Source: an uncultured Candidatus Rokubacteria bacterium
GTDB lineage: Bacteria > Methylomirabilota > Methylomirabilia > Rokubacteriales > CSP1-6
DNA length: 64,000 bases
Direction: 5' to 3'
NCBI GenBank assembly: GCA_963789955.1
Contig: CAWBMV010000034.1
Span: forward strand, 1,024,001-1,088,000
Shown: positions 30,147 to 39,465 of the stretch, in pieces
Layout of the letters: each line of letters begins with the position of its first letter
Position numbering within the stretch: the first letter of the stretch is position 1
Translations under genes and position numbers: made by a program
Notes under the pieces: model-generated
Databases searched by the model: none
The model's input: the letters and a program-made list of their open reading frames with translations, nothing else
Told to the model about the DNA's origin: nothing

Positions 30147-32055
30147 AACCACGCTCGCCCGCCTGCTGCAGCGCAACGCACGTGACCTCCACGACAAGCC
30201 GGCGATCCGCGAGAAGGATCGCGGGATCTGGCAGACCTGGACGTGGCGTCAGTACCACGACGAGGTCCGTGATTTCGCCCTCGGCCTGGCCGCGCTCGGC
30301 TTCAAGCGCGGCGAACGGCTCTCGGTCATCGGCGACAACCGTCCGCGACTCTATTGGGCACAGGTCGCCGCGCAGACGCTCGGTGGAGTGCCGGTGCCGG
30401 TTTACCAAGACTCGATCGCGAAGGAGCTCGCGTTCGTCTGGAACCACGCCGAGTGCGCGGTGATCGTGGCCGAGGACCAGGAGCAGGTCGACAAGGTGCT
30501 CAGCCTCCGGGCCGAGCTCCCGGCGCTGCGTCTCGTCGTGTACGACGACGCGCGCGGAATGCTCCATTACAAGCACGACTGGCTCCGCTCCTATCAATCC
30601 GTCCAGGAGCTCGGGCGCGAGTTCGCCGCCAAGAACCCCGGCTATTTCGAAGTCGAGGTGGACAAGGGCAAGTCCGAGGACGTCGCCATCATCTGCTACA
30701 CGTCTGGCACCACCGGCAACCCGAAGGGCGTCATGCTGACGCACGCGAACGCCATCGCCATCGCGGACGCGTTCCGCAAGGCCGACGACGTCCGCCCCGA
30801 GGACGACGCGCTCGCGTACCTGCCGATGGCGTGGGCGGGCGACGCTGCCTACACCCTGTTCCTCAGCCTCGTGGTGGGCTTCTGCTCCAACTGCCCGGAG
30901 AGCCCGGAGACGGTCCAGCGTGACTTGCGCGAGCTGGGGCCGACGACCGTGCTGGCGCCGCCCCGCATCTGGGAAAACATGTTGACGAGCATCCAGGTGA
31001 AGGCCGCCGACGCGCCCGCGCTCAAACGGTGGGTCTTCGAGACCTTCCGGTCGGCCGCCGAGCGGGCGGAGATCCTTCGCGCCGACGCCAAGCCGATTCC
31101 GCTCGCCCTGCGCCTGGCGTGCATGCTCGGCAACGTGCTCGTGTACACGCCGATCCGCGATCAGCTCGGCCTGCGGCGCGCCAAGTGGGCGCTGACGGGT
31201 GGGGCACCACTCGGACCGGACACGTTCCGCTTCTTCCGGTCGATCGGCGTCAACCTCAAGCAGGTCTACGGCTCGACGGAGACGACGGGCCTGGTGTCGC
31301 TGCAGCCGAGCGACGAGGCCAACCCGACGACCGCCGGCCGGCCGTGTCCAGGCATCGAGGTCAAGATCGCCGAGCGCGGCGAGGTGCTGGTCCGCGGCCC
31401 TGTCGTCTTCAAGGGTTACCTGAAGAACGACGAGGCCACGCGCGAGGTCATCGATTCCGACGGCTGGTTCCGGACGGGGGACGCGGGGTTCGTGGACCCG
31501 CGCGGCCACCTCGTCATCATCGATCGGGCCAAGGACGTCGGCGCCCTCCACGACGGCACGCCCTTCGCGCCGCAGTTCATCGAGAACAAGCTGAAGTTCA
31601 GCCCGTTCATCCGCGAGGCGGTGGCCTTCGGCAACGACCGCGCATTCGTCACCGCGATGATCGCGATCGATCTGAACACCGTCGGGAACTGGGCCGAGCG
31701 CCGCGGGATCGCCTACACGAGCTACGCGGACCTCAGCCAGAAGCCCGAGGTGTCCGACCTGATCCGCGAGGAGATCGGCAAGGGCAATGAGACGCTGCCG
31801 GAGTCGACGCGGATCCGCCGATTCCTGCTCCTCACCAAGGACCTCGAGGCCGACGACGCCGAGATGACGCGCACGCGAAAGGTACGCCGACGTTTCGTGG
31901 CCGAGAAGTACGCCCCGGTCATCGACGCTTTCTACTCGGGCGGTCACGCGGTCGAGTTGGAGGCGACCATCACGTACGAGGACGGCCGTCAGGCCGTCAT
32001 GAAGTCGCGCGTGCGGGTCGAGGACGTCGACGCTGCGGCCGTGGCCCATGTCTGA
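30139..32055 (+). CDS. Long-chain acyl-CoA synthetase, second paralog
   Basis: YTSGTTGNPKG, YGSTE, WFRTGDAG, IIDRAKD, MTRTRKVRR. Confidence 0.93.
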   Translation: MVETTLARLLQRNARDLHDKPAIREKDRGIWQTWTWRQYHDEVRDFALGLAALGFKRGERLSVIGDNRPRLYWAQVAAQTLGGVPVPVYQDSIAKELAFVWNHAECAVIVAEDQEQVDKVLSLRAELPALRLVVYDDARGMLHYKHDWLRSYQSVQELGREFAAKNPGYFEVEVDKGKSEDVAIICYTSGTTGNPKGVMLTHANAIAIADAFRKADDVRPEDDALAYLPMAWAGDAAYTLFLSLVVGFCSNCPESPETVQRDLRELGPTTVLAPPRIWENMLTSIQVKAADAPALKRWVFETFRSAAERAEILRADAKPIPLALRLACMLGNVLVYTPIRDQLGLRRAKWALTGGAPLGPDTFRFFRSIGVNLKQVYGSTETTGLVSLQPSDEANPTTAGRPCPGIEVKIAERGEVLVRGPVVFKGYLKNDEATREVIDSDGWFRTGDAGFVDPRGHLVIIDRAKDVGALHDGTPFAPQFIENKLKFSPFIREAVAFGNDRAFVTAMIAIDLNTVGNWAERRGIAYTSYADLSQKPEVSDLIREEIGKGNETLPESTRIRRFLLLTKDLEADDAEMTRTRKVRRRFVAEKYAPVIDAFYSGGHAVELEATITYEDGRQAVMKSRVRVEDVDAAAVAHV

Positions 32056-32944
32056 CGACTTCGGATTCTTCTTGCTCCTGGTGTCGAACGGGCTCCTGAC
32101 CGGCCTGATGTACTCGCTGATCGCGCTCGGGTTCGTGCTGGTCTACAAGGCCACCGACGCCATCAACTTCGCCCAGGGCGAATTCGTGATGATCGCGGGC
32201 TTCGTGGCGGCCGGTGGCCTCATGGTCTGGGGGGCGCCTCTCTGGCTGGCCATCGCGATGGCGATCGCGAGCCTGGTCTTGTTCGGCTTCGTCCTCGAGC
32301 GCGTGATGCTGCGCAAGCTCATCGGCCGGCCGGTCATCGCCGTGGTCATGGCCACGATCGGCCTGGCGTCGATTCTGCGCGGCATCGGGCCTTTCACCAT
32401 CTTCTCCGGGAGCCAGCCGCTGCCGCTGCCCATCCGCGACGAGCCGTTCGTGCTGGGCCCGCTCTTCATCCCCCCGATCCAGTTGCTGGGGGCCGCGGTC
32501 AGCCTGGCGTTCCTCACCGGGTTCGGCTGGTTCTTCCTGAAGTCGCGCAAGGGCATTGCGATGCGGGCCGTCGCCGACAACCAGCAGGTCGCCATGGCAA
32601 TGGGTATCGACGTCGAGCGCTACTTCGGGGTGGCGTGGGCCATGACGGGCATCGTCTCGGCCCTCGGTGGGATCCTCTGGGGCAATCTGCTCGGTGTGGA
32701 CGTGAACCTGGCGCTTGTCGGGTTCAAGGTGTTTCCAGTCGTTATCCTTGGCGGTCTCGATTCCATTCCCGGTGCGATCCTCGGAGGCCTGATCGTGGGT
32801 GTCGTCGAGAACATCGCGGCTGGCTACGTCGATCCCTACGTCGGGGGCGGCACCAAGGACTTCGCGCCCTACGTCCTCATGATTCTCGCGCTGATGATTC
32901 GCCCCTACGGCATGTTCGGCAAACGCATCATCGAGCGAGTCTAA
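32048..32944 (+). CDS. Liv-type ABC permease (LivH-like), second module
   Basis: YSLIALGFVLVYKATDAINFAQG, AMRAVADN, RPYGMFG. Confidence 0.93.
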   Translation: MSDDFGFFLLLVSNGLLTGLMYSLIALGFVLVYKATDAINFAQGEFVMIAGFVAAGGLMVWGAPLWLAIAMAIASLVLFGFVLERVMLRKLIGRPVIAVVMATIGLASILRGIGPFTIFSGSQPLPLPIRDEPFVLGPLFIPPIQLLGAAVSLAFLTGFGWFFLKSRKGIAMRAVADNQQVAMAMGIDVERYFGVAWAMTGIVSALGGILWGNLLGVDVNLALVGFKVFPVVILGGLDSIPGAILGGLIVGVVENIAAGYVDPYVGGGTKDFAPYVLMILALMIRPYGMFGKRIIERV

Positions 32945-32950
32945 TGGTCT

Positions 32951-33118
32951 GGCTTGGGGCGGCGGGGGGAGGCGGGGGGAGGGGTGCTGGGACCACGCGG
33001 CACGCGTTCGGGATTCCCGGGGCGGCTGGGCTCCATCTGGGCGCGCCACTCCCGCATTCGACTTGGAGGGAACGGGTCCCAGCACCCCTCCCCCCGCCTC
33101 CCCCCGCCGCCCCAAGCC
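32951..33118 (+). repeat. Long-stem hairpin element, copy A (44-bp perfect inverted repeat around 80-nt core)
   Basis: 32951-32994 is the exact reverse complement of 33075-33118. Confidence 0.95.
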
Positions 33119-33258
33119 CTCGGATGATTTGCTTAGGGCAATTCGAAGCGTCGGCTCCCGCGCCGGTCGCTTCGCTCCGGCGCTGCTATGCATCCCGACC
33201 TCACGTGCCGCGCATGCTTTTGTGCTTCGCCTACGTCGTAGGCCAAGAGTCGGCGGGG

Positions 33259-33434
33259 CACGCGTGGAGCCCGCGGGGGCGGAGTGGTGCGGGGGGTGTC
33301 GGGACCCGTTCCCTCCTAGCGAGCGGCGGATCGAGTGCGCCGGGATGGAGCCCAGCCGATATGGAAAATGCGCACGCGTGCCGCGTGGTCCCGACACCCC
33401 CCGCACCACCCCGCCCCCGCGGGCTCGACGCGTG
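33259..33434 (-). repeat. Long-stem hairpin element, copy B, inverted relative to A (48-bp inverted repeat with 2 mismatches, 80-nt core)
   Basis: 33259-33306 pairs with 33387-33434; the reverse complement of core 33307-33386 aligns without gaps to core A (56/80 identical by hand count). Confidence 0.95.
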
Positions 33435-33443
33435 GAGAACTGT

Positions 33444-34511
33444 GTGATTCAGCGAGAATGCGGAGTCCTGAAGACGACGTACGAAGCGGATATGGGCCTC
33501 TATCCGCTGCCGATCGCGCGGTGGACCGTCGCAGCGCTGGGCGTGGTGTTCTTTCTGGTCATCCCGCTCTCGCTCCACGAGTACTACCTGTCGGTCGCCA
33601 ACCTGGTGTGGATCGCGATCATCGGCGCGCTCGGCCTCAACATCCTGGTCGGCTACACGGGCCAGGTGTCGATCGGCCACGGCGCGTTCATGTCGGTCGG
33701 GGCCTACACGGCCGCCAACCTCGCCAATCGCCTGGGCTCGCCGTGGCCCGTGAACCTGCTTGCCGGCGGCTTGATGGCGGCGCTGATCGGCGCCATTGTT
33801 GGTATCCCGTCCCTGCGCATCAAGGGGCTCTACCTGGCCATCGCCACCCTGGCCGGTCAGCTCATCATCGAGTGGACGATCAACCACGTGACGTTCATCA
33901 GCGGGGGCGTGCAGGCCTCGATCGAGGTGGCCCGGCCGCGGGTGGGCGCGTACGTCATCGACAGTCAGCGGGACATGTACTACTTCCTGCTCGTGTTCGT
34001 CGTCCTGGCCATCGTGGCGACGATGAACCTGATGCGTACGCGAGTCGGGCGCGCGTTCATCGCGATCCGCGATCAGGACATCGCGGCGGAGATCATCGGC
34101 ATCAACATCTTTCGCTACAAGCTCCTCGCGTTCGCCATCTCGTCCTTCTTCGCCGGGGTGACTGGCGTGCTCTACACGTACTTCCTCGGCATCGCCAACT
34201 ACGAGCAGTTCCAGATCGGCGTGTCGATCGATTACCTGGCGATGATCATCATCGGCGGGCTCGGGTCCGTGCTCGGCTCGATCTTCGGCGCGATCTTCGT
34301 GACCCTGCTGCCGATCGTCATCCGGTACGCCATGGAGTCGTTCGGTGGGTTGTTCTTCAGCCAGTCAACCGTGCTCAACCTGATTCCCAACCTCCGCCTG
34401 ATGATGTTCGGCGCCCTCATCATCTTCTTCCTGATCGTGGAGCCCGATGGGCTGAACCGTCTCTGGCGGAACATTCGAAGCTACTTCAGAGTCTGGCCGT
34501 TCGCGTACTGA
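33444..34511 (+). CDS. Liv-type ABC permease (LivM-like), second module
   Basis: GTG 33444 (VIQRECGVLKTTY parallels MIYREAGQFKTTY), RBS GGAGA; GLNILVGYTGQVSIG, PSLRIKGLYLAIATLA. Confidence 0.92.
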   Translation: MIQRECGVLKTTYEADMGLYPLPIARWTVAALGVVFFLVIPLSLHEYYLSVANLVWIAIIGALGLNILVGYTGQVSIGHGAFMSVGAYTAANLANRLGSPWPVNLLAGGLMAALIGAIVGIPSLRIKGLYLAIATLAGQLIIEWTINHVTFISGGVQASIEVARPRVGAYVIDSQRDMYYFLLVFVVLAIVATMNLMRTRVGRAFIAIRDQDIAAEIIGINIFRYKLLAFAISSFFAGVTGVLYTYFLGIANYEQFQIGVSIDYLAMIIIGGLGSVLGSIFGAIFVTLLPIVIRYAMESFGGLFFSQSTVLNLIPNLRLMMFGALIIFFLIVEPDGLNRLWRNIRSYFRVWPFAY

Positions 34512-34533
34512 GTACGCGAGCAAGGAGGAGCAG

Positions 34534-35787
34534 ATGAGACAGTTCCTGGTCATCGCGATGGCAGTGATCGTGGCGGCGGGCAGCCTGCTGACGGCGGGTT
34601 CGTCGCTCGCCCAATCGAAGAGCGAAATCGTGATCGGCGTGCAGTGTGACCGCACCGGACCGACCCAGGTCGTGGGCACGGTCCTGTGCCCGGGCGAACA
34701 CGACTACATCGCCCTCGTCAACTCCAAGGGCGGCGTCGAGGGGCATCACATCAAGGACCTCGAGATCGATCACGAGTACAAGGTGCCGCCGGCCGTCGAG
34801 TCCTACGAGCGTTTCAAGAAGGAAGGCGCCGTGTCGATTTCGGTGTACGGGACGCCGCAGATCTACGCGCTCGCGGCGAAGCTCACCGAGGATCGAATCC
34901 CCGGCACCTCGCCCGGCTTCGGGAGCGCCGCGGCCGCCGACGGCCTCCGGTACCCGTACATCTTCCCGATCGCCGCCACCTACTGGTCGCAGGCCGCCGC
35001 GGCGGTCGATTTCGTGAAGAAGCAGCTCGGCGGCAACATCAAGGGTAAGAAGATCGCGTTCATCTTCTATGACAATCCCGCCGGCCGGGAGCCGATCGAG
35101 GTGCTCGAGGCGCTTGCGGCCAAGGAGGGCTTCCAGCTCAGGACCTTCGCGGTGCCGCCGCCCGGCGTCGAGATGGGCGCCCAGGTGCTCGACATCGCCC
35201 AGCGGTACCGGGCGGACTTCGTCATCGGACACCTGTTCGGCGGCGCGCCGCAGGTGTCGATCAAGGAGTTCAAGCGGGTCGGGTATCCGCTCCGCAAGTT
35301 CGTGTCCTTCGTGTGGGGCGGCGGCGAGGCCAACATCGAGGGCGCCGGAGGCTTCGGGGTCGCCGAGGGATATTACGTCATGCAGTTCGCCGGCGTGGGC
35401 AGCGACTACCCGGTGCTCAACGAGATCCGCGAGATGTACAAGAAGCAGGGCAAGGAGCCGCCGAAGGAAATGGCCTCGACGGTGTTCTACAACCGGGGCG
35501 TGCTGGTCGCCGCGCTGCACGTCGAGGCGATTCGCAACGCGCTGAAGGCGAAGCCCGACGGCAAGATCACCGGCGAGGACGTGAAGAAGGGCTTCGAGAA
35601 GATTTCCGGCTTCACCCTGGGCGGGCTCGTGCCGCCGCTCAAGATCACCCCGACCGACCACGAGGGCGGCGGGCTCGTGCAGATCTGGCAAGTGAAGGGC
35701 GGCAAGTTCGTGAAGGTGACCGACTGGTACGCCGCCTACCAGGACGTGGTGGCCAAGCAGATCAAGGAGGCGGCTGCGAAGAAGTAG
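34534..35787 (+). CDS. Liv-type ABC substrate-binding protein, second module
   Basis: Signal peptide; DRTGPTQ, SKGGVEG, ITPTDHEGGG. Confidence 0.92.
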   Translation: MRQFLVIAMAVIVAAGSLLTAGSSLAQSKSEIVIGVQCDRTGPTQVVGTVLCPGEHDYIALVNSKGGVEGHHIKDLEIDHEYKVPPAVESYERFKKEGAVSISVYGTPQIYALAAKLTEDRIPGTSPGFGSAAAADGLRYPYIFPIAATYWSQAAAAVDFVKKQLGGNIKGKKIAFIFYDNPAGREPIEVLEALAAKEGFQLRTFAVPPPGVEMGAQVLDIAQRYRADFVIGHLFGGAPQVSIKEFKRVGYPLRKFVSFVWGGGEANIEGAGGFGVAEGYYVMQFAGVGSDYPVLNEIREMYKKQGKEPPKEMASTVFYNRGVLVAALHVEAIRNALKAKPDGKITGEDVKKGFEKISGFTLGGLVPPLKITPTDHEGGGLVQIWQVKGGKFVKVTDWYAAYQDVVAKQIKEAAAKK

Positions 35788-35798
35788 GGCGGGCGGCC

Positions 35799-36593
35799 AT
35801 GCTGAGCCTCAACAACATCGAGGTCATCTACGACGGCGTGATCCTCGTCCTCAAGGGCGTGTCGCTCAACGTCCGCGAGGGCGGGATCACGACGTTGCTC
35901 GGCGCCAACGGCGCCGGGAAGACCACGACGCTCAAGGCGATCTCGGGCCTCTTGCGGTCCGAGCGCGGCGACGTCACGAAGGGCTCGATCGAGTTCAAGA
36001 ACGAGCGGATCGACCGCCTGCCCCCGCACGCGGTCGTCCGTCACGGCATCGTGCAGGTGTTCGAAGGCCGCCGGGTCTTCGAGCACCTGACGACCGAAGA
36101 AAACCTGATCGCCGGCGCGCACATCCAGAGGGACCGGCATCGCGTCGCGGCCGGGATCGAGCGCGTCTACGGCTACTTTCCGCGTCTCAAGGAACGGCGC
36201 GGCGTCCAGGCCGGGTACCTGTCCGGCGGCGAGCAGCAGATGCTGGTCATCGGCCGCGCGCTGATGGCCGATCCCCACGTGATACTCCTCGACGAGCCGT
36301 CGCTCGGCCTGGCGCCGATGCTCGTGGAGGAGATCTTCGCGATCGTGCAGCAGCTGAATCGGCAAGAGAAGCTCACCGTGCTGCTGGTCGAGCAGAACGC
36401 CTCGCTGGCGCTGACCATCGCCGAGCACGGCTACGTGATGGAGAACGGGCGGATCGTGCTCGACGGCACCGCCGCGATGCTCACGCAGAACGCCGACATC
36501 AAAGAGTTCTACCTCGGCCTCACCGAGGTCGGCAGCCGCAAGTCGTACCGGGACGTCAAGCACTACAAGCGCCGCAAACGTTGGCTCTCTTGA
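35799..36593 (+). CDS. Liv-type ABC ATP-binding protein (LivF-like), second module
   Basis: GANGAGKT, LSGGEQQM, LLDEPSLGLAP, YRDVKHYKRRKRWL. Confidence 0.93.
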   Translation: MLSLNNIEVIYDGVILVLKGVSLNVREGGITTLLGANGAGKTTTLKAISGLLRSERGDVTKGSIEFKNERIDRLPPHAVVRHGIVQVFEGRRVFEHLTTEENLIAGAHIQRDRHRVAAGIERVYGYFPRLKERRGVQAGYLSGGEQQMLVIGRALMADPHVILLDEPSLGLAPMLVEEIFAIVQQLNRQEKLTVLLVEQNASLALTIAEHGYVMENGRIVLDGTAAMLTQNADIKEFYLGLTEVGSRKSYRDVKHYKRRKRWLS

Positions 36594-36608
36594 GAGGAGC
36601 GAACTTCG

Positions 36609-37061
36609 ATGGGTCTGAGGCGAGGGATTGGACTGTGGATGATTGTGGTCGTCGCGACGCTGAACCTCGCGGCGTGCGCGACGATGGGCGATCCGCCGCC
36701 GACACTCTACAAGCGGCTGGGCGGGCGCGAGGGTATCGCGCTCGTGGTCGGCGACTTCGTCACCAACATGGCCGGCGACAGCCGCGTCAATGCGCGGTTC
36801 AAGGACATGAAAGGTCCGGACGTCGAGAAGCTGAAGTCCAACCTCGCCGACCAGATCTGCGACGCGACCGGCGGGCCCTGCTCCTATCTGGGGCGCGACA
36901 TGAAGACGAGCCACAAGGGCATGAAGATCACCGACGCCGAGTGGAACGCGACCGTCGAGAATCTCACCAAGGCGCTCGACAAGAACAAGGTCGCGGCCAA
37001 GGACCAGAGCGAGCTGCTCGGTCTGCTCGGGCCGATGAAGGCGGACATCGTCGGCCAGTAA
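36609..37061 (+). CDS. Group I truncated haemoglobin with lipoprotein signal
   Basis: LYKRLGG, TGGPCSYLGRDMKTSH (proximal His), lipobox LAAC. Confidence 0.88.
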   Translation: MGLRRGIGLWMIVVVATLNLAACATMGDPPPTLYKRLGGREGIALVVGDFVTNMAGDSRVNARFKDMKGPDVEKLKSNLADQICDATGGPCSYLGRDMKTSHKGMKITDAEWNATVENLTKALDKNKVAAKDQSELLGLLGPMKADIVGQ

Positions 37062-37069
37062 GTAAGTAG

Positions 37070-38594
37070 ATGAGCGCCCAGGCGTTCACGGTCTACGACC
37101 TGCTCGTGCGGGGTGCGTCGCTGCTATGGCGACGCGCCGGCGCTGATCCAGTCCACGCGGCAGTGGACCTTCCGTCAGCTCCTGGAGCGCGCCGACCGGC
37201 TCGCCGCCGGGCTGGTCGGGCTCGGCCTGTCCCGGGGCGATCGAATCTGCATCCTCGCCCAGAACGACGTCGGCTACGTCGATCTGTACGGCGCCTGCGC
37301 CCGCCAGGGCATCATCGCGTACCCGATCAACTGGCGGCTCACGGCGCCTGAGGTCGAGCGCGTCCTGGAGCGGGCATCGCCCGTGATGATGGTCGCGGAC
37401 GCGTCCACCCTGCCGGTCGTCGGTGAGTGGCCGCGCTCCAAGCGCGGCATCGCGCACTGGTACCAGCTCGGCGAGGCGCCGCCGGCGCCCGGCTTCGCGG
37501 CGCTGTCGAGCCTCTACCGCGACGGCGAGGCGCCGCCGGTCGCCGAGGTGGGCGGCGACGATCCCTTCGCGGTGATCTCCACGGCGGCGGTGGACGTGAT
37601 CCCGCGGGGCGCCGTGCTCACGCACACGAACATGATCACGGCGTCGCTCGTGGTCGTTCAGAGCCTCGGGTTCACGGCCGTCGATCGCTATCTGCTCGCG
37701 CTGCCGCTGTTTCACATCACGGCGCTCGGCAACTTCGTGGCGCACCTGCACGCGGGCGGCGCCTGTGTGCTGGTCGCGCGCTATGACGCCGAGGAGGCGG
37801 TGCGCCTGATCGACGCGCATCGCATCACACACCTCTCGGACTTTCCGCCGGTGCTCGTCAACCTGCTGGACGCCGCGCAGAAGCTCGGGAGCAAGCTGTC
37901 GAGCTTGAAGCACGTGTCGGGCCTCGACGCGCCGCCGACCATCCAGCGGCTGCACGATGAGACGCAGGCGCAGTTCTGGACGGGCTTCGGACAGTCCGAG
38001 ACCACCGGGTTCGTCAGCATCCAGCGCGTGCGCGACAAGCCCGGCGCCGCCGGCCGGCCGATTCCCGTGTGCCGGGTGCGGCTCGTCGACGACTACGACC
38101 GCGAGGTGCCGGCCGGCACACCCGGCGAGATCGTGGTGCGCGGGCCGGTCGTGTTCCAGGGCTACTTCGGCCAGCCCGACGTGACCGCGTACACCTTGCG
38201 CAACGGCTGGCACCACACCGGCGACGTGGGCCGCTTCGACGACGAGGGCTGGCTCTACTACGTCAAGCGCAAGCCCGAAAAGGAGCTGATCAAGCCCGGC
38301 GGCGAGAACGTCTATCCGGCCGAGGTCGAGTCGGTGATCGTGCAGATGGACGGGATCGGCGCGGCATGCGTCTACGGGATCCCCGACGTCAAGTGGGGCG
38401 AGTCGATCAAGGCGGTCGTCGAAGTGCGGCCGGCCGACCGCTATACCGCTCAACAAGTCATCGACTTCGTGGGCTCGAAGATCGCGCGGTTCAAGCGCCC
38501 GCATGCGGTCGCGTTCACCGACGCGCTGCCCCGGACCGCCGACGGCGCCGTGGACCGCGAAGCGGTGAAGGCCCGGTGGGGCGCCGGAGCATGA
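37070..38594 (+). CDS. Adenylate-forming (acyl-CoA ligase-like) protein with degenerate motifs (frameshift near 37115)
   Basis: GFGQSET, GEIVVRGP, WHHTGDVG, ELIKPGGENVYPAEVE; P-loop reads STAAVDVIPRG. Confidence 0.88.
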
Positions 38595-38622
38595 AGGTCG
38601 AGAGCTCAAGCAATTTCCCGGC

Positions 38623-39465
38623 GTGAGCTCGCCTGACTTCGTCGCCATCGGGCACGTCACGCTCGACCGCTTCGGCGAATCCACGCGTCCCGGCGGCTCC
38701 GCGCTCTACGCCGCCGTCACCGCCTACCGTCTCGGCCTGTCCGTCGGTCTCCTCACGAGTCACGGCGACGATTTTCCGCTCGCGGTGATTCCGCCGAAGA
38801 TCGAGGTCATCAGCATTCCCGCCGACGAGACGACCGTGTTCGAGCACCGGCACGAGCCCGGCGGCCGCGTGTCCCACGTGCGCTCGGTCGCCAGCCCTCT
38901 GACGACGGCCGACGTGCCCGAAGACTGGCGCGACGCCGCGCTGACTTTGCTGGCACCGGTGGTCGACGAGGTCGATCCGATGATCGCGACGCTCTTCACG
39001 GACGGCGCTGTCGGCGCGGCCGCGCAGGGCTGGGTACGCCAGGTGACGCCGGACGGGCTCGTCGTCCCGCGTCCCTGGCAGTCGCCCGAGAGTCTGCTGC
39101 AATCGGTCCAGGCACTGTTCCTGAGCCGCGAGGACATCCTCGGCCAGGAAGCCGAGGTGATCGAGTGGTTCCAGCGCATGCCCGTCGGCGTGCTCACGGC
39201 CGACCGCGTCGGCGCCCTCTTGTTCGTGAACGGCGAGCGGTACGAGGTTCAGCCGCGCCCGGCGCGCGAAGTCGACCCGACCGGCGCCGGCGACGTGTTC
39301 GCCGCAACCTTTCTCATCCAGTACCAGCGTGACGGCGACGCCTGGCAGGCTGCGGCCGCCGCGGCCTGCGCGGGCTCGCTCGCGGTGGAAGGTGAGGGGT
39401 GGTCGGCGGTCGCCGATCGCGCCGCGCTCGATGCGGCGCTCCTCGAATATCAACTGAGCCAGTAG
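38623..39465 (+). CDS. PfkB/ribokinase family carbohydrate kinase
   Basis: GHVTLD, PGGSALYAA, DPTGAGDVFAA. Confidence 0.9.
   Translation: MSSPDFVAIGHVTLDRFGESTRPGGSALYAAVTAYRLGLSVGLLTSHGDDFPLAVIPPKIEVISIPADETTVFEHRHEPGGRVSHVRSVASPLTTADVPEDWRDAALTLLAPVVDEVDPMIATLFTDGAVGAAAQGWVRQVTPDGLVVPRPWQSPESLLQSVQALFLSREDILGQEAEVIEWFQRMPVGVLTADRVGALLFVNGERYEVQPRPAREVDPTGAGDVFAATFLIQYQRDGDAWQAAAAAACAGSLAVEGEGWSAVADRAALDAALLEYQLSQ

What the first reader, a model, noticed from the sequence alone, without database searches (positions are those of the whole stretch)
32951..33434. Inverted doublet of a ~170-nt long-stem element with covarying arms and a block-conserved 80-nt core
Seen: the ~500-nt gap between livH2 and livM2 holds two hairpins. 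Copy A has a perfect 44-bp stem and copy B a 48-bp stem with 2 mismatches. The arms differ between copies yet each copy still pairs, e.g. stem base GGGTGCTGGGACC/GGTCCCAGCACCC versus GGGTGTCGGGACC/GGTCCCGACACCC, a compensatory swap. Both enclose exactly 80 nt. Core B reverse-complemented aligns to core A without gaps (56/80 by hand). Identical blocks ACGCGGCACGCGT, CGGCTGGGCTCCATC and GGAGGGAACG are separated by variable segments of equal length. Inference: fixed length, constant blocks, variable slots and arms that stay paired do not look like a decaying duplication. Candidates are a non-autonomous mobile element family (REPIN/MITE-like, mobilised in trans) or a structured ncRNA/ssDNA recognition site; the variable slots could be guide-like, which is speculative. 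No transposase is in the window. The right arm of B abuts the livM2 RBS, so it could also affect translation.
Basis: partly seen in the sequence, partly recalled or inferred. Interest (0 to 1): 0.8.

Follow-up and report, generated by a model that had tools for sequence, protein, structure and literature searches.

The report
Stranded mini-transposon hairpins with polar core
The two hairpins are old copies of a small repeat of soil Rokubacteria whose complete form in related genomes carries transposon ends; here the ends are no longer recognisable, yet the centre stays almost unchanged and single copies sit beside a one-sided loss of cytosine, so the cell likely keeps them as sites that briefly open the neighbouring DNA.

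Summary
Observation confirmed. The doublet is two of 36 copies of a dispersed repeat in this Rokubacteriales genome. In other genera the same core and arms lie inside a 239-264-bp MITE. Both its ends copy the right end of a 1,145-bp IS630 element, and it inserts at CTAG (empty sites found). Copies in this genome have no recognisable ends and are locus-fixed. At livH-livM, invariant core columns differ by 0.7-2.5% between species, against 31-35% for variable columns, which is about the silent-site rate. That points to selection in place. Arm changes are mostly compensatory and arm mismatches are strand-biased. Single copies have a one-sided, ~300-nt cytosine loss (24 of 28), absent beside end-bearing copies. 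Doublets are mostly tail-to-tail. Guide-like slots, RAYT mobilisation, an Rfam match and core covariation were tested and not supported. Best reading: a likely MITE-derived, host-retained polar site that makes adjacent DNA single-stranded (RRS-like gap or R-loop; untested). Whether the ends or the hairpin came first is unresolved. The scan had already noted this family, its IS630 link and the cytosine loss on other DNA; I retested each.

The parts
32048..32944 (+). livH-like ABC permease gene; its stop codon lies 6 nt before arm A
   Evidence: best NCBIfam match LivH, 107.9 bits, below the curated cut-off
32951..32994 (+). Copy A, G-rich 5' arm (44 nt; matches a four-G3-run motif)
32995..33074 (+). 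Copy A conserved core (80 nt), core-forward strand = +
33075..33118 (+). Copy A, C-rich 3' arm, perfect complement of the 5' arm
33119..33258 (.). 140-nt spacer facing the 3' sides of both copies; single-copy in the genome; where the inner MITE ends would have been, no significant remnant; one weak terminator-like site at 33204-33216
33259..33306 (-). Copy B, 3' arm in core-forward orientation
33307..33386 (-). Copy B conserved core (80 nt), core-forward strand = -; tail-to-tail with copy A
33387..33434 (-). Copy B, 5' arm in core-forward orientation; its outer base is the first G of the GGAG before livM
33444..34511 (+). livM-like ABC permease gene (GTG start)
   Evidence: best NCBIfam match LivM, 135.1 bits, below the curated cut-off

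Best explanation
The two hairpins are old, locus-fixed copies of a repeat whose complete form in related genomes is an IS630-type miniature transposon (MITE); they likely lost their transposon ends and are likely kept by the host as polar sites that transiently make about 300 bases on one side single-stranded. Step 1 (shown in relatives): the complete 239-264-bp element has two IS630 right ends and sits in CTAG sites. Mobilisation in trans by the cognate DD35E transposase is inferred. Step 2 (inferred): in this genus the outer ends eroded, leaving core plus about 44-bp arms. Step 3 (shown): arms keep pairing by compensatory change. Template-switch copying plus single-strand selection is the inferred cause. 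Step 4 (shown): fixed core positions are conserved in place while the slots drift at the silent-site rate, which implies sequence-specific recognition by a host factor (inferred). Step 5 (polarity shown, cause inferred): DNA 3' of the core-forward strand loses C and gains G. The most likely cause is a recurrent single-stranded gap set at the folded element during replication, as at E. coli RRS; an R-loop from a core-directed transcript is the close second. The tail-to-tail doublet points both affected zones into the spacer rather than straight into livH and livM (geometry shown, benefit inferred).
For: Family: 36 full copies in G000; core pattern in 32 of 183 order genomes, all in one family. 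MITE form: 24 distinct complete copies; 48 of 48 ends closer to the IS right end (mean 26.8/32) than the left (22.0/32); 15 of 24 with CTAG at both ends. IS: 1,145-1,146 bp with CTAG at both ends, NF033545 259 bits against a cut-off of 100, DD35E. An 82%-identical intact copy lies in same-genus G007. Empty sites with a single CTAG: L226 versus G104, L152 versus G021. End remnants inside the genus: G016, G003. In G000 flanks GTYAAS occurs at 8 of 72 sides against 0.8%, and CTAG at 9 of 72 against 3.3%. Selection in place: 37 invariant columns differ 0.025 (8 A copies) and 0.007 (8 B copies), 25 variable columns 0.354 and 0.309; 4-fold sites average 0.67 identity. Arms: 135 compensatory against 47 one-sided changes in 22 pairs; pairing 0.96 in G000 against 0.89 in end-bearing copies. 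Strand bias of mismatches: 38 versus 10 copies, p=6e-5. Cytosine loss: 24 of 28 single copies with 3' GC skew above 0.1, against 4 of 28 on the 5' side. It holds at 4-fold sites for genes on either strand. It is absent beside 16 end-bearing copies (mean 0.008) and present beside 65 end-less copies (0.087). Families B and C in G000 show the same one-sided skew, and family C has IS1380-type ends in other genera.
Against: No recognisable end in G000 copies by two profile tests. The remnant motifs were chosen after viewing the data, GTCAA can be a native -35 box, and three other end motifs were not enriched. Only 2 of 17 stop codons next to copies read CTAG, no more than the genome's 542 of 4,188. 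End-less copies also stand at livH-livM in genomes that hold end-bearing copies (G081, G111) and in other genera. A sister core (family E) showed no IS630-type end in any copy printed. So the hairpin may predate the ends. No close IS630 was found in G000 or in G081, G090, G059, G104 and G075, where the youngest copies lie (MAGs are incomplete). Complete copies were found by searching for the end, so their share is not a census. Family E shows the mismatch bias (27:0) but no cytosine loss (23 copies, p=0.92). A strictly fork-dependent gap should spare about half the copies, and fork direction could not be read. The mismatch bias puts wobble pairs on the strand opposite the one that loses C, so which strand is exposed is open. 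Orthologous pairs are not independent. No RNA or ssDNA data.
Confidence: 0.55

Rival explanations
1. Hairpin first: an older end-less family of arm-plus-core elements already existed, and IS ends later captured it (IS630 for this core, IS1380 for core C). A fold-back copy of one IS right end would have made a young MITE. The window's copies would then never have had ends. The polar function would be the same.
For: Both ends are right-end-like, as a fold-back or two-IS capture would give. The core is not found in the IS. End-less copies occur in genera g1, g6, g9, g39, g50, g54 and g26. Sister core E lacks these ends and also forms a tail-to-tail pair at livH-livM in G067. IS1380-type ends enclose several unrelated cargoes. 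Stop codons beside copies are not CTAG-enriched.
Against: End-bearing or end-remnant copies exist within the genus. CTAG and GTYAAS are enriched at the expected distance in G000. No other mobiliser was found. Family C shows the same with-ends and without-ends split.
Confidence: 0.25
2. RNA-level element: the copies act as long mRNA stem-loops or as a small transcribed RNA (ERIC, Correia or REP-like processing or stability signal). The cytosine loss would be a by-product of transcription or an R-loop starting at the core.
For: Copies sit mostly between genes, often just after a stop codon. Wobble-type mismatches favour one strand. The effect is seen in 24 of 28 copies, as a fork-independent process predicts. 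MITE RNAs are known RNase III/E substrates (PMC2229807 first third, PMC10969869 passages).
Against: The bias follows the core, not the neighbouring genes. No covariation in the core. No Rfam family. No sigma-70 promoter in the region, and inward -10-like hexamers are not enriched (28 versus 20). No RNA contig covered the element (uninformative, not absence).
Confidence: 0.25
3. Neutral MITE fossil: the arms are kept by template switching alone, and the core only looks conserved because of gene conversion or low mutability.
For: Template switching can perfect stems (PMC8794818, abstract and section 8). Copies are lost at some loci, and coreless palindromes exist.
Against: The same 37 columns stay fixed across loci and genera while neighbouring columns drift at the silent rate. 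Variable columns keep an orthology signal (0.31-0.35 against 0.49 between paralogues), which argues against homogenisation. It does not explain the one-sided cytosine loss.
Confidence: 0.1
4. REPIN moved by a RAYT (HUH Y1) transposase, or a guide-bearing RNA whose variable slots pick targets.
For: Long extragenic hairpins that occur in doublets.
Against: No PF01797 match in G000, in 8 of 8 same-genus genomes searched, or in the core-bearing genera g6, g9 and g39. No core in 29 Y1 loci. Arms vary and the loop is conserved, the reverse of REPs (recalled). Slots do not match a copy's own flanks (13, 18 and 13 of 36).
Confidence: 0.03

Closest known systems
IS630-family MITEs, e.g. RUP of Streptococcus pneumoniae with IS630-Spn1 (PMC2229807, first third read); IS630 mechanism from ISY100 (PMC2170065, passages)
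   Same: Non-coding, under 300 bp, terminal inverted repeats shared with an IS630 element, TA within CTAG at both ends, empty sites, intergenic, long stem-loop.
   Different: Both ends copy the IS right end. The interior is not IS-derived. It is GC-rich, not AT-rich. In the window's genus the ends are gone while the interior is conserved in place. No one-sided base loss beside such MITEs appeared in the passages I read.
ERIC/IRU and Correia/NEMIS elements (PMC2229807 first third, PMC10969869 passages)
   Same: Dispersed imperfect palindromes near gene ends, with TA-type ends and an internal motif that can bind a host protein (IHF in Correia).
   Different: No sequence match was found in E. coli genomes or plasmids. 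Their described roles are in RNA processing, whereas here the polarity follows the core, not the neighbouring transcript.
E. coli Replication Risk Sequences, RRS (PMC11194060: abstract, sections 20 and 21 read)
   Same: GC-rich, about 200 bp, extensive secondary structure, G-run motif, conserved sequence and position, and a one-sided effect on flanking DNA that falls off with distance.
   Different: No sequence match. RRS are two copies with G4 on one strand and gaps up to 2 kb shown by experiment. Here there are dozens of transposon-spread copies with G-rich arms on both strands, a ~300-nt compositional signal only, and no test of gap formation or fork dependence.
REP/REPIN with RAYT
   Same: Extragenic hairpins, doublets, and a target for an IS110 element (IS621 in REP, PMC11208160 passages; one IS110 in this core).
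   Different: No RAYT in the carrier genus; conserved loop with variable arms; IS630 ends in complete copies.

Membership tests
IS630-type MITE | Terminal inverted repeats shared with an autonomous IS (family level) | tested here: met
   24 complete copies; ends average 26.8 of 32 nt identical to the IS right end
IS630-type MITE | Terminal inverted repeats in the two copies of this window | tested here: not met
   Profile scores not above intergenic null; G000 2 and 2 of 36 sides above the 95th percentile, 3 and 3 of 36 with a relaxed profile. These two copies are therefore filed as end-less derivatives, not as intact MITEs.
IS630-type MITE | Target duplication (TA) and empty sites | tested here: met
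   Of 5 filled loci tested, 2 gave clean empty sites with one CTAG (or CTAC) where the filled site has CTAG at both ends. A 2-bp TA and a 4-bp CTAG duplication cannot be told apart from sequence.
IS630-type MITE | Cognate DDE transposase | tested here: met
   P0001: NF033545 259 bits, PF13358, DD35E; 80% or more identical in 11 of 183 genomes, one of them same-genus G007; none found in G000
IS630-type MITE | Short, multi-copy, no transposase of its own | tested here: met
   239-264 bp; 36 copies; 1-nt indels in the core break any frame
IS630-type MITE | Mobilisation in trans shown | not testable with these tools
   Needs a transposition assay
REPIN/RAYT | RAYT (Y1) gene in carrier genomes, flanked by the repeat | tested here: not met
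REPIN/RAYT | Conserved REP arms (definition recalled) | tested here: not met
   Arms 0.69 identical between paralogues, core 0.81
RRS | Sequence homology to the 222-bp E. coli element | tested here: not met
   No match in 20,395 E. coli records
RRS | G-quadruplex motif on one strand | tested here: inconclusive
   Four-G3-run motif in 22 of 36 5' arms, but equally on both strands; motif only
RRS | Triggers ssDNA gaps on the lagging strand | not testable with these tools
   Only an indirect compositional signal; contig GC skew too flat to orient forks
Known structured RNA (Rfam) | Match at gathering score | tested here: not met
   Only generic miRNA-hairpin hits far below cut-off
Structured ncRNA (new) | Covariation inside the core | tested here: not met
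   163 cores: only columns 31:58 and 32:57 covary weakly; pairing equals the independence expectation in all candidate stems
Guide-bearing RNA (bridge-like) | Variable slots match target or donor | tested here: not met
   Own-flank matches no better than other flanks; only flanks within 200 nt were tested

The most novel reading that the evidence does not exclude
Rokubacteria carry several unrelated, transposon-spread hairpin cores that the host has kept, after the transposon ends were lost, as dozens of polar sites that open about 300 nt of neighbouring DNA as single strand. They would be a dispersed, portable class of RRS-like gap or priming sites read by an unknown host factor, which slowly rewrite silent sites of the adjacent gene and pair up tail-to-tail to contain the damage.
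Probability: 0.3. Interest if true: 0.85.

Novelty: new variant of a known kind. Interest (0 to 1): 0.62.

Why it matters
An IS630 MITE alone is ordinary. What is not ordinary is that immobile, end-less copies keep 37 core positions fixed across species while everything around them drifts, and leave a strand-specific base-composition mark on the next gene. The RRS paper notes that no screens exist for sequences that trigger transient gaps (PMC11194060 abstract). Here a compositional mark points to dozens of candidate sites per genome, in three unrelated families, with natural controls: young end-bearing copies lack the mark and empty orthologous sites exist. A 170-bp fragment can be tested directly in laboratory E. 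coli. If true, it shows a route from selfish MITE to chromosome-structure element and a local mutator acting on genes.

Tried and rejected
Rfam: only miRNA-hairpin noise. RAYT/Y1: none in G000 or the genus sample. Viral contigs, phages, plasmids and E. coli: no match. Short direct repeats at the ends of the 44-bp arms: none seen; the real ends lie about 40 nt further out in complete copies. Core as a piece of the IS630: no hit. Core as a captured gene: 22-nt hits in family f7 lie in an arsenate-reductase-like coding frame (label recalled) and are chance. Core as a peptide: some variable columns fall on third positions, but 1-nt indels and invariant 4-fold positions rule it out. Sigma-54 promoter: the GGCACG block resembles the -24 element but the GC is one base off the spacing (consensus recalled, not tested by a tool). 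Own inward promoter: TAnnnT 28 versus 20, not significant; CTAGnCT 10 versus 2, p=0.04, post hoc. Guide slots. Core covariation on both strands. Fork orientation: core-forward strand was the G-rich strand in 14 of 30, on nearly flat skew. Expression: three RNA runs held 5-6% of words; the two laid gave only contigs under 90% alike on livH/livM relatives and none on the element, which is no evidence either way. part 4 (arm pairing and G content of end-bearing copies) had a faulty cut point; it was discarded and redone. The filled-versus-empty substitution count gave only a mild 3' excess of C loss (357:311 against 356:411 further away, p=0.008), because local alignment drops diverged stretches. 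The metagenome scan, structure prediction and complex prediction were not used.

Full report
1. Observation. The arms, loops, blocks and 56/80 identity are as described. The doublet is real: it recurs with diverged but paired arms on a second G000 contig and in six same-genus genomes, and DNA contigs of run X2 match parts of it.

2. A dispersed family. A profile of the core finds 36 copies in G000, all near full length, with no fragments at E<0.01. Cores are 77-81 nt. Arms are about 40-48 bp, G-rich on the 5' side and locus-specific. By my own gene caller 33 of 36 are intergenic, and 17 start within 20 nt of a same-strand stop codon. The named records that share the pattern are almost all Rokubacteria or Methylomirabilota MAGs. 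The exact pattern occurs in 32 of 183 order genomes, all in one family and including 16 of 16 same-genus relatives. Diverged cores occur in further genera. Rfam, viral contigs, phages, plasmids and E. coli give nothing.

3. The complete element. CTAG is enriched 50-100 nt outside the core on both sides. In some relatives it begins a conserved outer inverted repeat. A search for that repeat hit 24 of 183 genomes and returned two kinds of locus: the repeat family itself, and insertion sequences. The IS is 1,145-1,146 bp with CTAG at both ends. It encodes an IS630 transposase (NF033545, 259 bits; DD35E), about 50% identical to annotated IS630 proteins on plasmids. I recovered 24 distinct complete copies of 239-264 bp. 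All 48 ends are closer to the IS right end than the left, and 15 of 24 copies have CTAG at both ends. These were found through the end motif, so they are not a census. The core has no match in the IS. Of five filled loci tested, two gave clean empty sites: L226 against G104 (CTAG) and G021 (CTAC), and L152 against G021 (CTAG). One orthologue was also filled, and two gave no joined orthologue. This fits the TA duplication known for IS630 (PMC2170065, passages). CTAG is three-fold depleted in G000 and lies mostly at stop codons (710) or between genes (1,056) of 2,114 sites, which would steer insertions to gene ends. Close IS630 relatives (80% or more) occur in 11 of 183 genomes, including same-genus G007. 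They were not found in G000 or in the five genomes with the youngest copies.

4. The window's copies have no ends. Two profile tests find no end signal in G000. Traces remain: GTYAAS at 8 of 72 sides against 0.8%, and CTAG at 9 of 72 against 3.3%. The windows were chosen after viewing, and three other motifs were not enriched. G016 and G003, of the same genus, keep recognisable ends. No two unrelated G000 copies exceed 0.874 identity (median 0.75), against 0.90-0.95 among G081 copies, so G000 copies are old. Against simple erosion: stop codons beside copies are not CTAG-enriched (2 of 17). End-less copies also occupy livH-livM in G021, G081, G082 and G111, and a sister core without these ends does so in genera g45 and g20. 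The junction is only 7-13 bp in G009 (same genus) and five others. The order of events is therefore open; I put end loss ahead of end capture, about 2 to 1.

5. Selection in place. Over 37 orthologous pairs, mean identity is 0.83 for the core, about 0.80 for arms, 0.56 for the outer tail and 0.67 for 4-fold sites of the flanking genes. I defined invariant and variable columns from copies at other loci. At livH-livM the 37 invariant columns differ by 0.025 (A, 8 copies) and 0.007 (B, 8 copies), and the 25 variable columns by 0.354 and 0.309, against 0.49 between paralogues. Slots drift like silent sites and keep orthology; blocks do not move. For copies that have stayed at one locus this implies host-level constraint. 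The core shows no convincing covariation, so the constraint is on sequence. Slots do not match flanks.

6. Arms. In 22 pairs, 135 arm changes are compensatory, 47 one-sided and 14 break both sides. Old copies pair better than end-bearing ones (median 0.96 against 0.89). Template switching can do this (PMC8794818, abstract and section 8). The residual mismatches are not symmetric: on the core-forward strand A.C/C.A number 61 and G.T/T.G 25 in 109 end-less copies (38 versus 10 copies, p=6e-5). The direction is the same whichever way neighbouring genes point, though each subset alone is not significant. Family E gives 27:0 and family C 1:11 in its written orientation. One strand is thus treated differently, and the core sets which.

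7. One-sided cytosine loss. On the core-forward strand, C falls to 0.23 and G rises to 0.43 at 100-200 nt 3' of the arm, back to normal by 400 nt; the 5' side is flat. 24 of 28 single copies have skew above 0.1 against 4 of 28 (p=2e-8). At 4-fold sites the shift holds for genes on either strand: C 0.29 / G 0.63 for 5 same-strand genes and the mirror image for 12 opposite-strand genes, against about 0.48 / 0.44. It is absent beside 16 end-bearing copies and present beside 65 end-less ones (p=0.004), so it likely builds up after insertion. Families B (15 copies) and C (10) in G000 show it too; for C its side relative to the mismatch bias is the same as for this family. Family E does not show it. 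All 4 doublets in G000 are tail-to-tail, two of them paralogous. Other loci gave 6 tail-to-tail, 2 tandem and 0 head-to-head, but 5 of the 6 are this junction. Shielding is not complete or proven: the last 300 nt of livH have G 0.28 at 64 4-fold sites, which could be leakage from copy B.

8. Mechanism. Shown: family, ends and target in relatives; no ends here; constraint on the core; compensation; polarity. Inferred: mobilisation by IS630, end loss, a host reader of the core, and single-strand exposure as the cause of the base shift (C loss on exposed strands is established knowledge, recalled). For the exposure I favour a replication gap set at the folded element. It is GC-rich and G-run-rich (four-G3 motif in 22 of 36 arms), like RRS, which triggers gaps that trail off with distance (PMC11194060, sections 20 and 21). 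The geometry also fits: the strand that tolerates wobble pairs has the affected zone on its 5' side, where a polymerase blocked on that template would leave a gap. Two things weigh against it: the base lost from that strand is G, not C, and most copies are affected although forks should meet them from both sides. An R-loop from the core fits those two points but has no promoter support.

9. Known systems and novelty. At family level it is an IS630-type MITE like RUP (PMC2229807, first third). The window's copies fail the end test and are end-less derivatives. It is not a REPIN, not an RRS by sequence and not an Rfam family. Searches for Rokubacteria with repeat and intergenic, Methylomirabilota with MITE or insertion sequence, IS630-MITE-CTAG, IS1380-MITE-hairpin and domesticated bacterial MITEs listed no paper on this family; I saw listings only, and the library lacks most subscription journals. 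A genome-wide MITE census used RefSeq bacteria and does not name this group in its main text (PMC11602168, passages; supplements not read). Earlier AI notes of this scan describe the family, an IS630 link (seen only) and the base shift on other DNA. Verdict: new variant of a known kind, interest 0.62.

Noticed in passing
L172:1613-2725 (G059:C35): An IS110-family element (NF033542, 209.7 bits) is inserted in the core of an end-bearing copy, with CT on both sides. Its left non-coding end has slots that match the core on both sides of the insertion point and vary among homologues, as a bridge RNA aimed at this repeat would. Two homologues sit just inside a CTAG-ended repeat of the IS1380 end type (L316, L320). 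One case only.
   Followed up: partly
G000, e.g. C34:1162833-1162981, C37:381822-381985, C1:182905-183001: At least three other families with the same G-rich/C-rich ~44-bp arms and unrelated cores: B (15 copies), C (10), and a short-loop type D (3 seen). B and C show the same one-sided base shift.
   Followed up: partly
L253, L426, L427, L433, L443; IS at G067:C91:10868-12559: Family C and several other cargoes lie between CTAG-bounded ends shared with an IS1380 element (NF033539, 361 bits); up to 86 such ends in G126.
   Followed up: partly
L354, L367, L381, L382, L388-L417: Sister core E (84-85 nt, same first and last bases as this core, different middle) in genera g45 and g20; 20 copies in G067; also a tail-to-tail pair at livH-livM; strong mismatch bias but no base shift.
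   Followed up: partly
livH-livM junction in L357, L359, L361, L362, L375-L379, L383-L387: The junction is a hot spot: other lineages hold unrelated palindromic or tandem repeats there.
   Followed up: no
G000 C26:5370-5417 and C37:356899-357001: Perfect palindromes without a core at sites where a paralogue or orthologue has a full copy, suggesting core deletion. In G013 (L350) the doublet has collapsed into one hybrid hairpin.
   Followed up: no
G000 C23 versus C34 (window 32048-39465): Contig C23 repeats this liv region at about 89% identity, with extra copies of the element. It is probably a second strain or species in the bin (contamination 5.14%), so a few of the 36 copies may not be from one organism.
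   Followed up: partly
L226 / L306: G081 and G090 (different genera) both have an end-bearing insert at the same CTAG, while G021 and G104 are empty: independent insertion at a hot spot or precise loss.
   Followed up: no
window 33204-33224: A weak terminator-like hairpin with a T run in the spacer (1 found, 0.3 expected).
   Followed up: no
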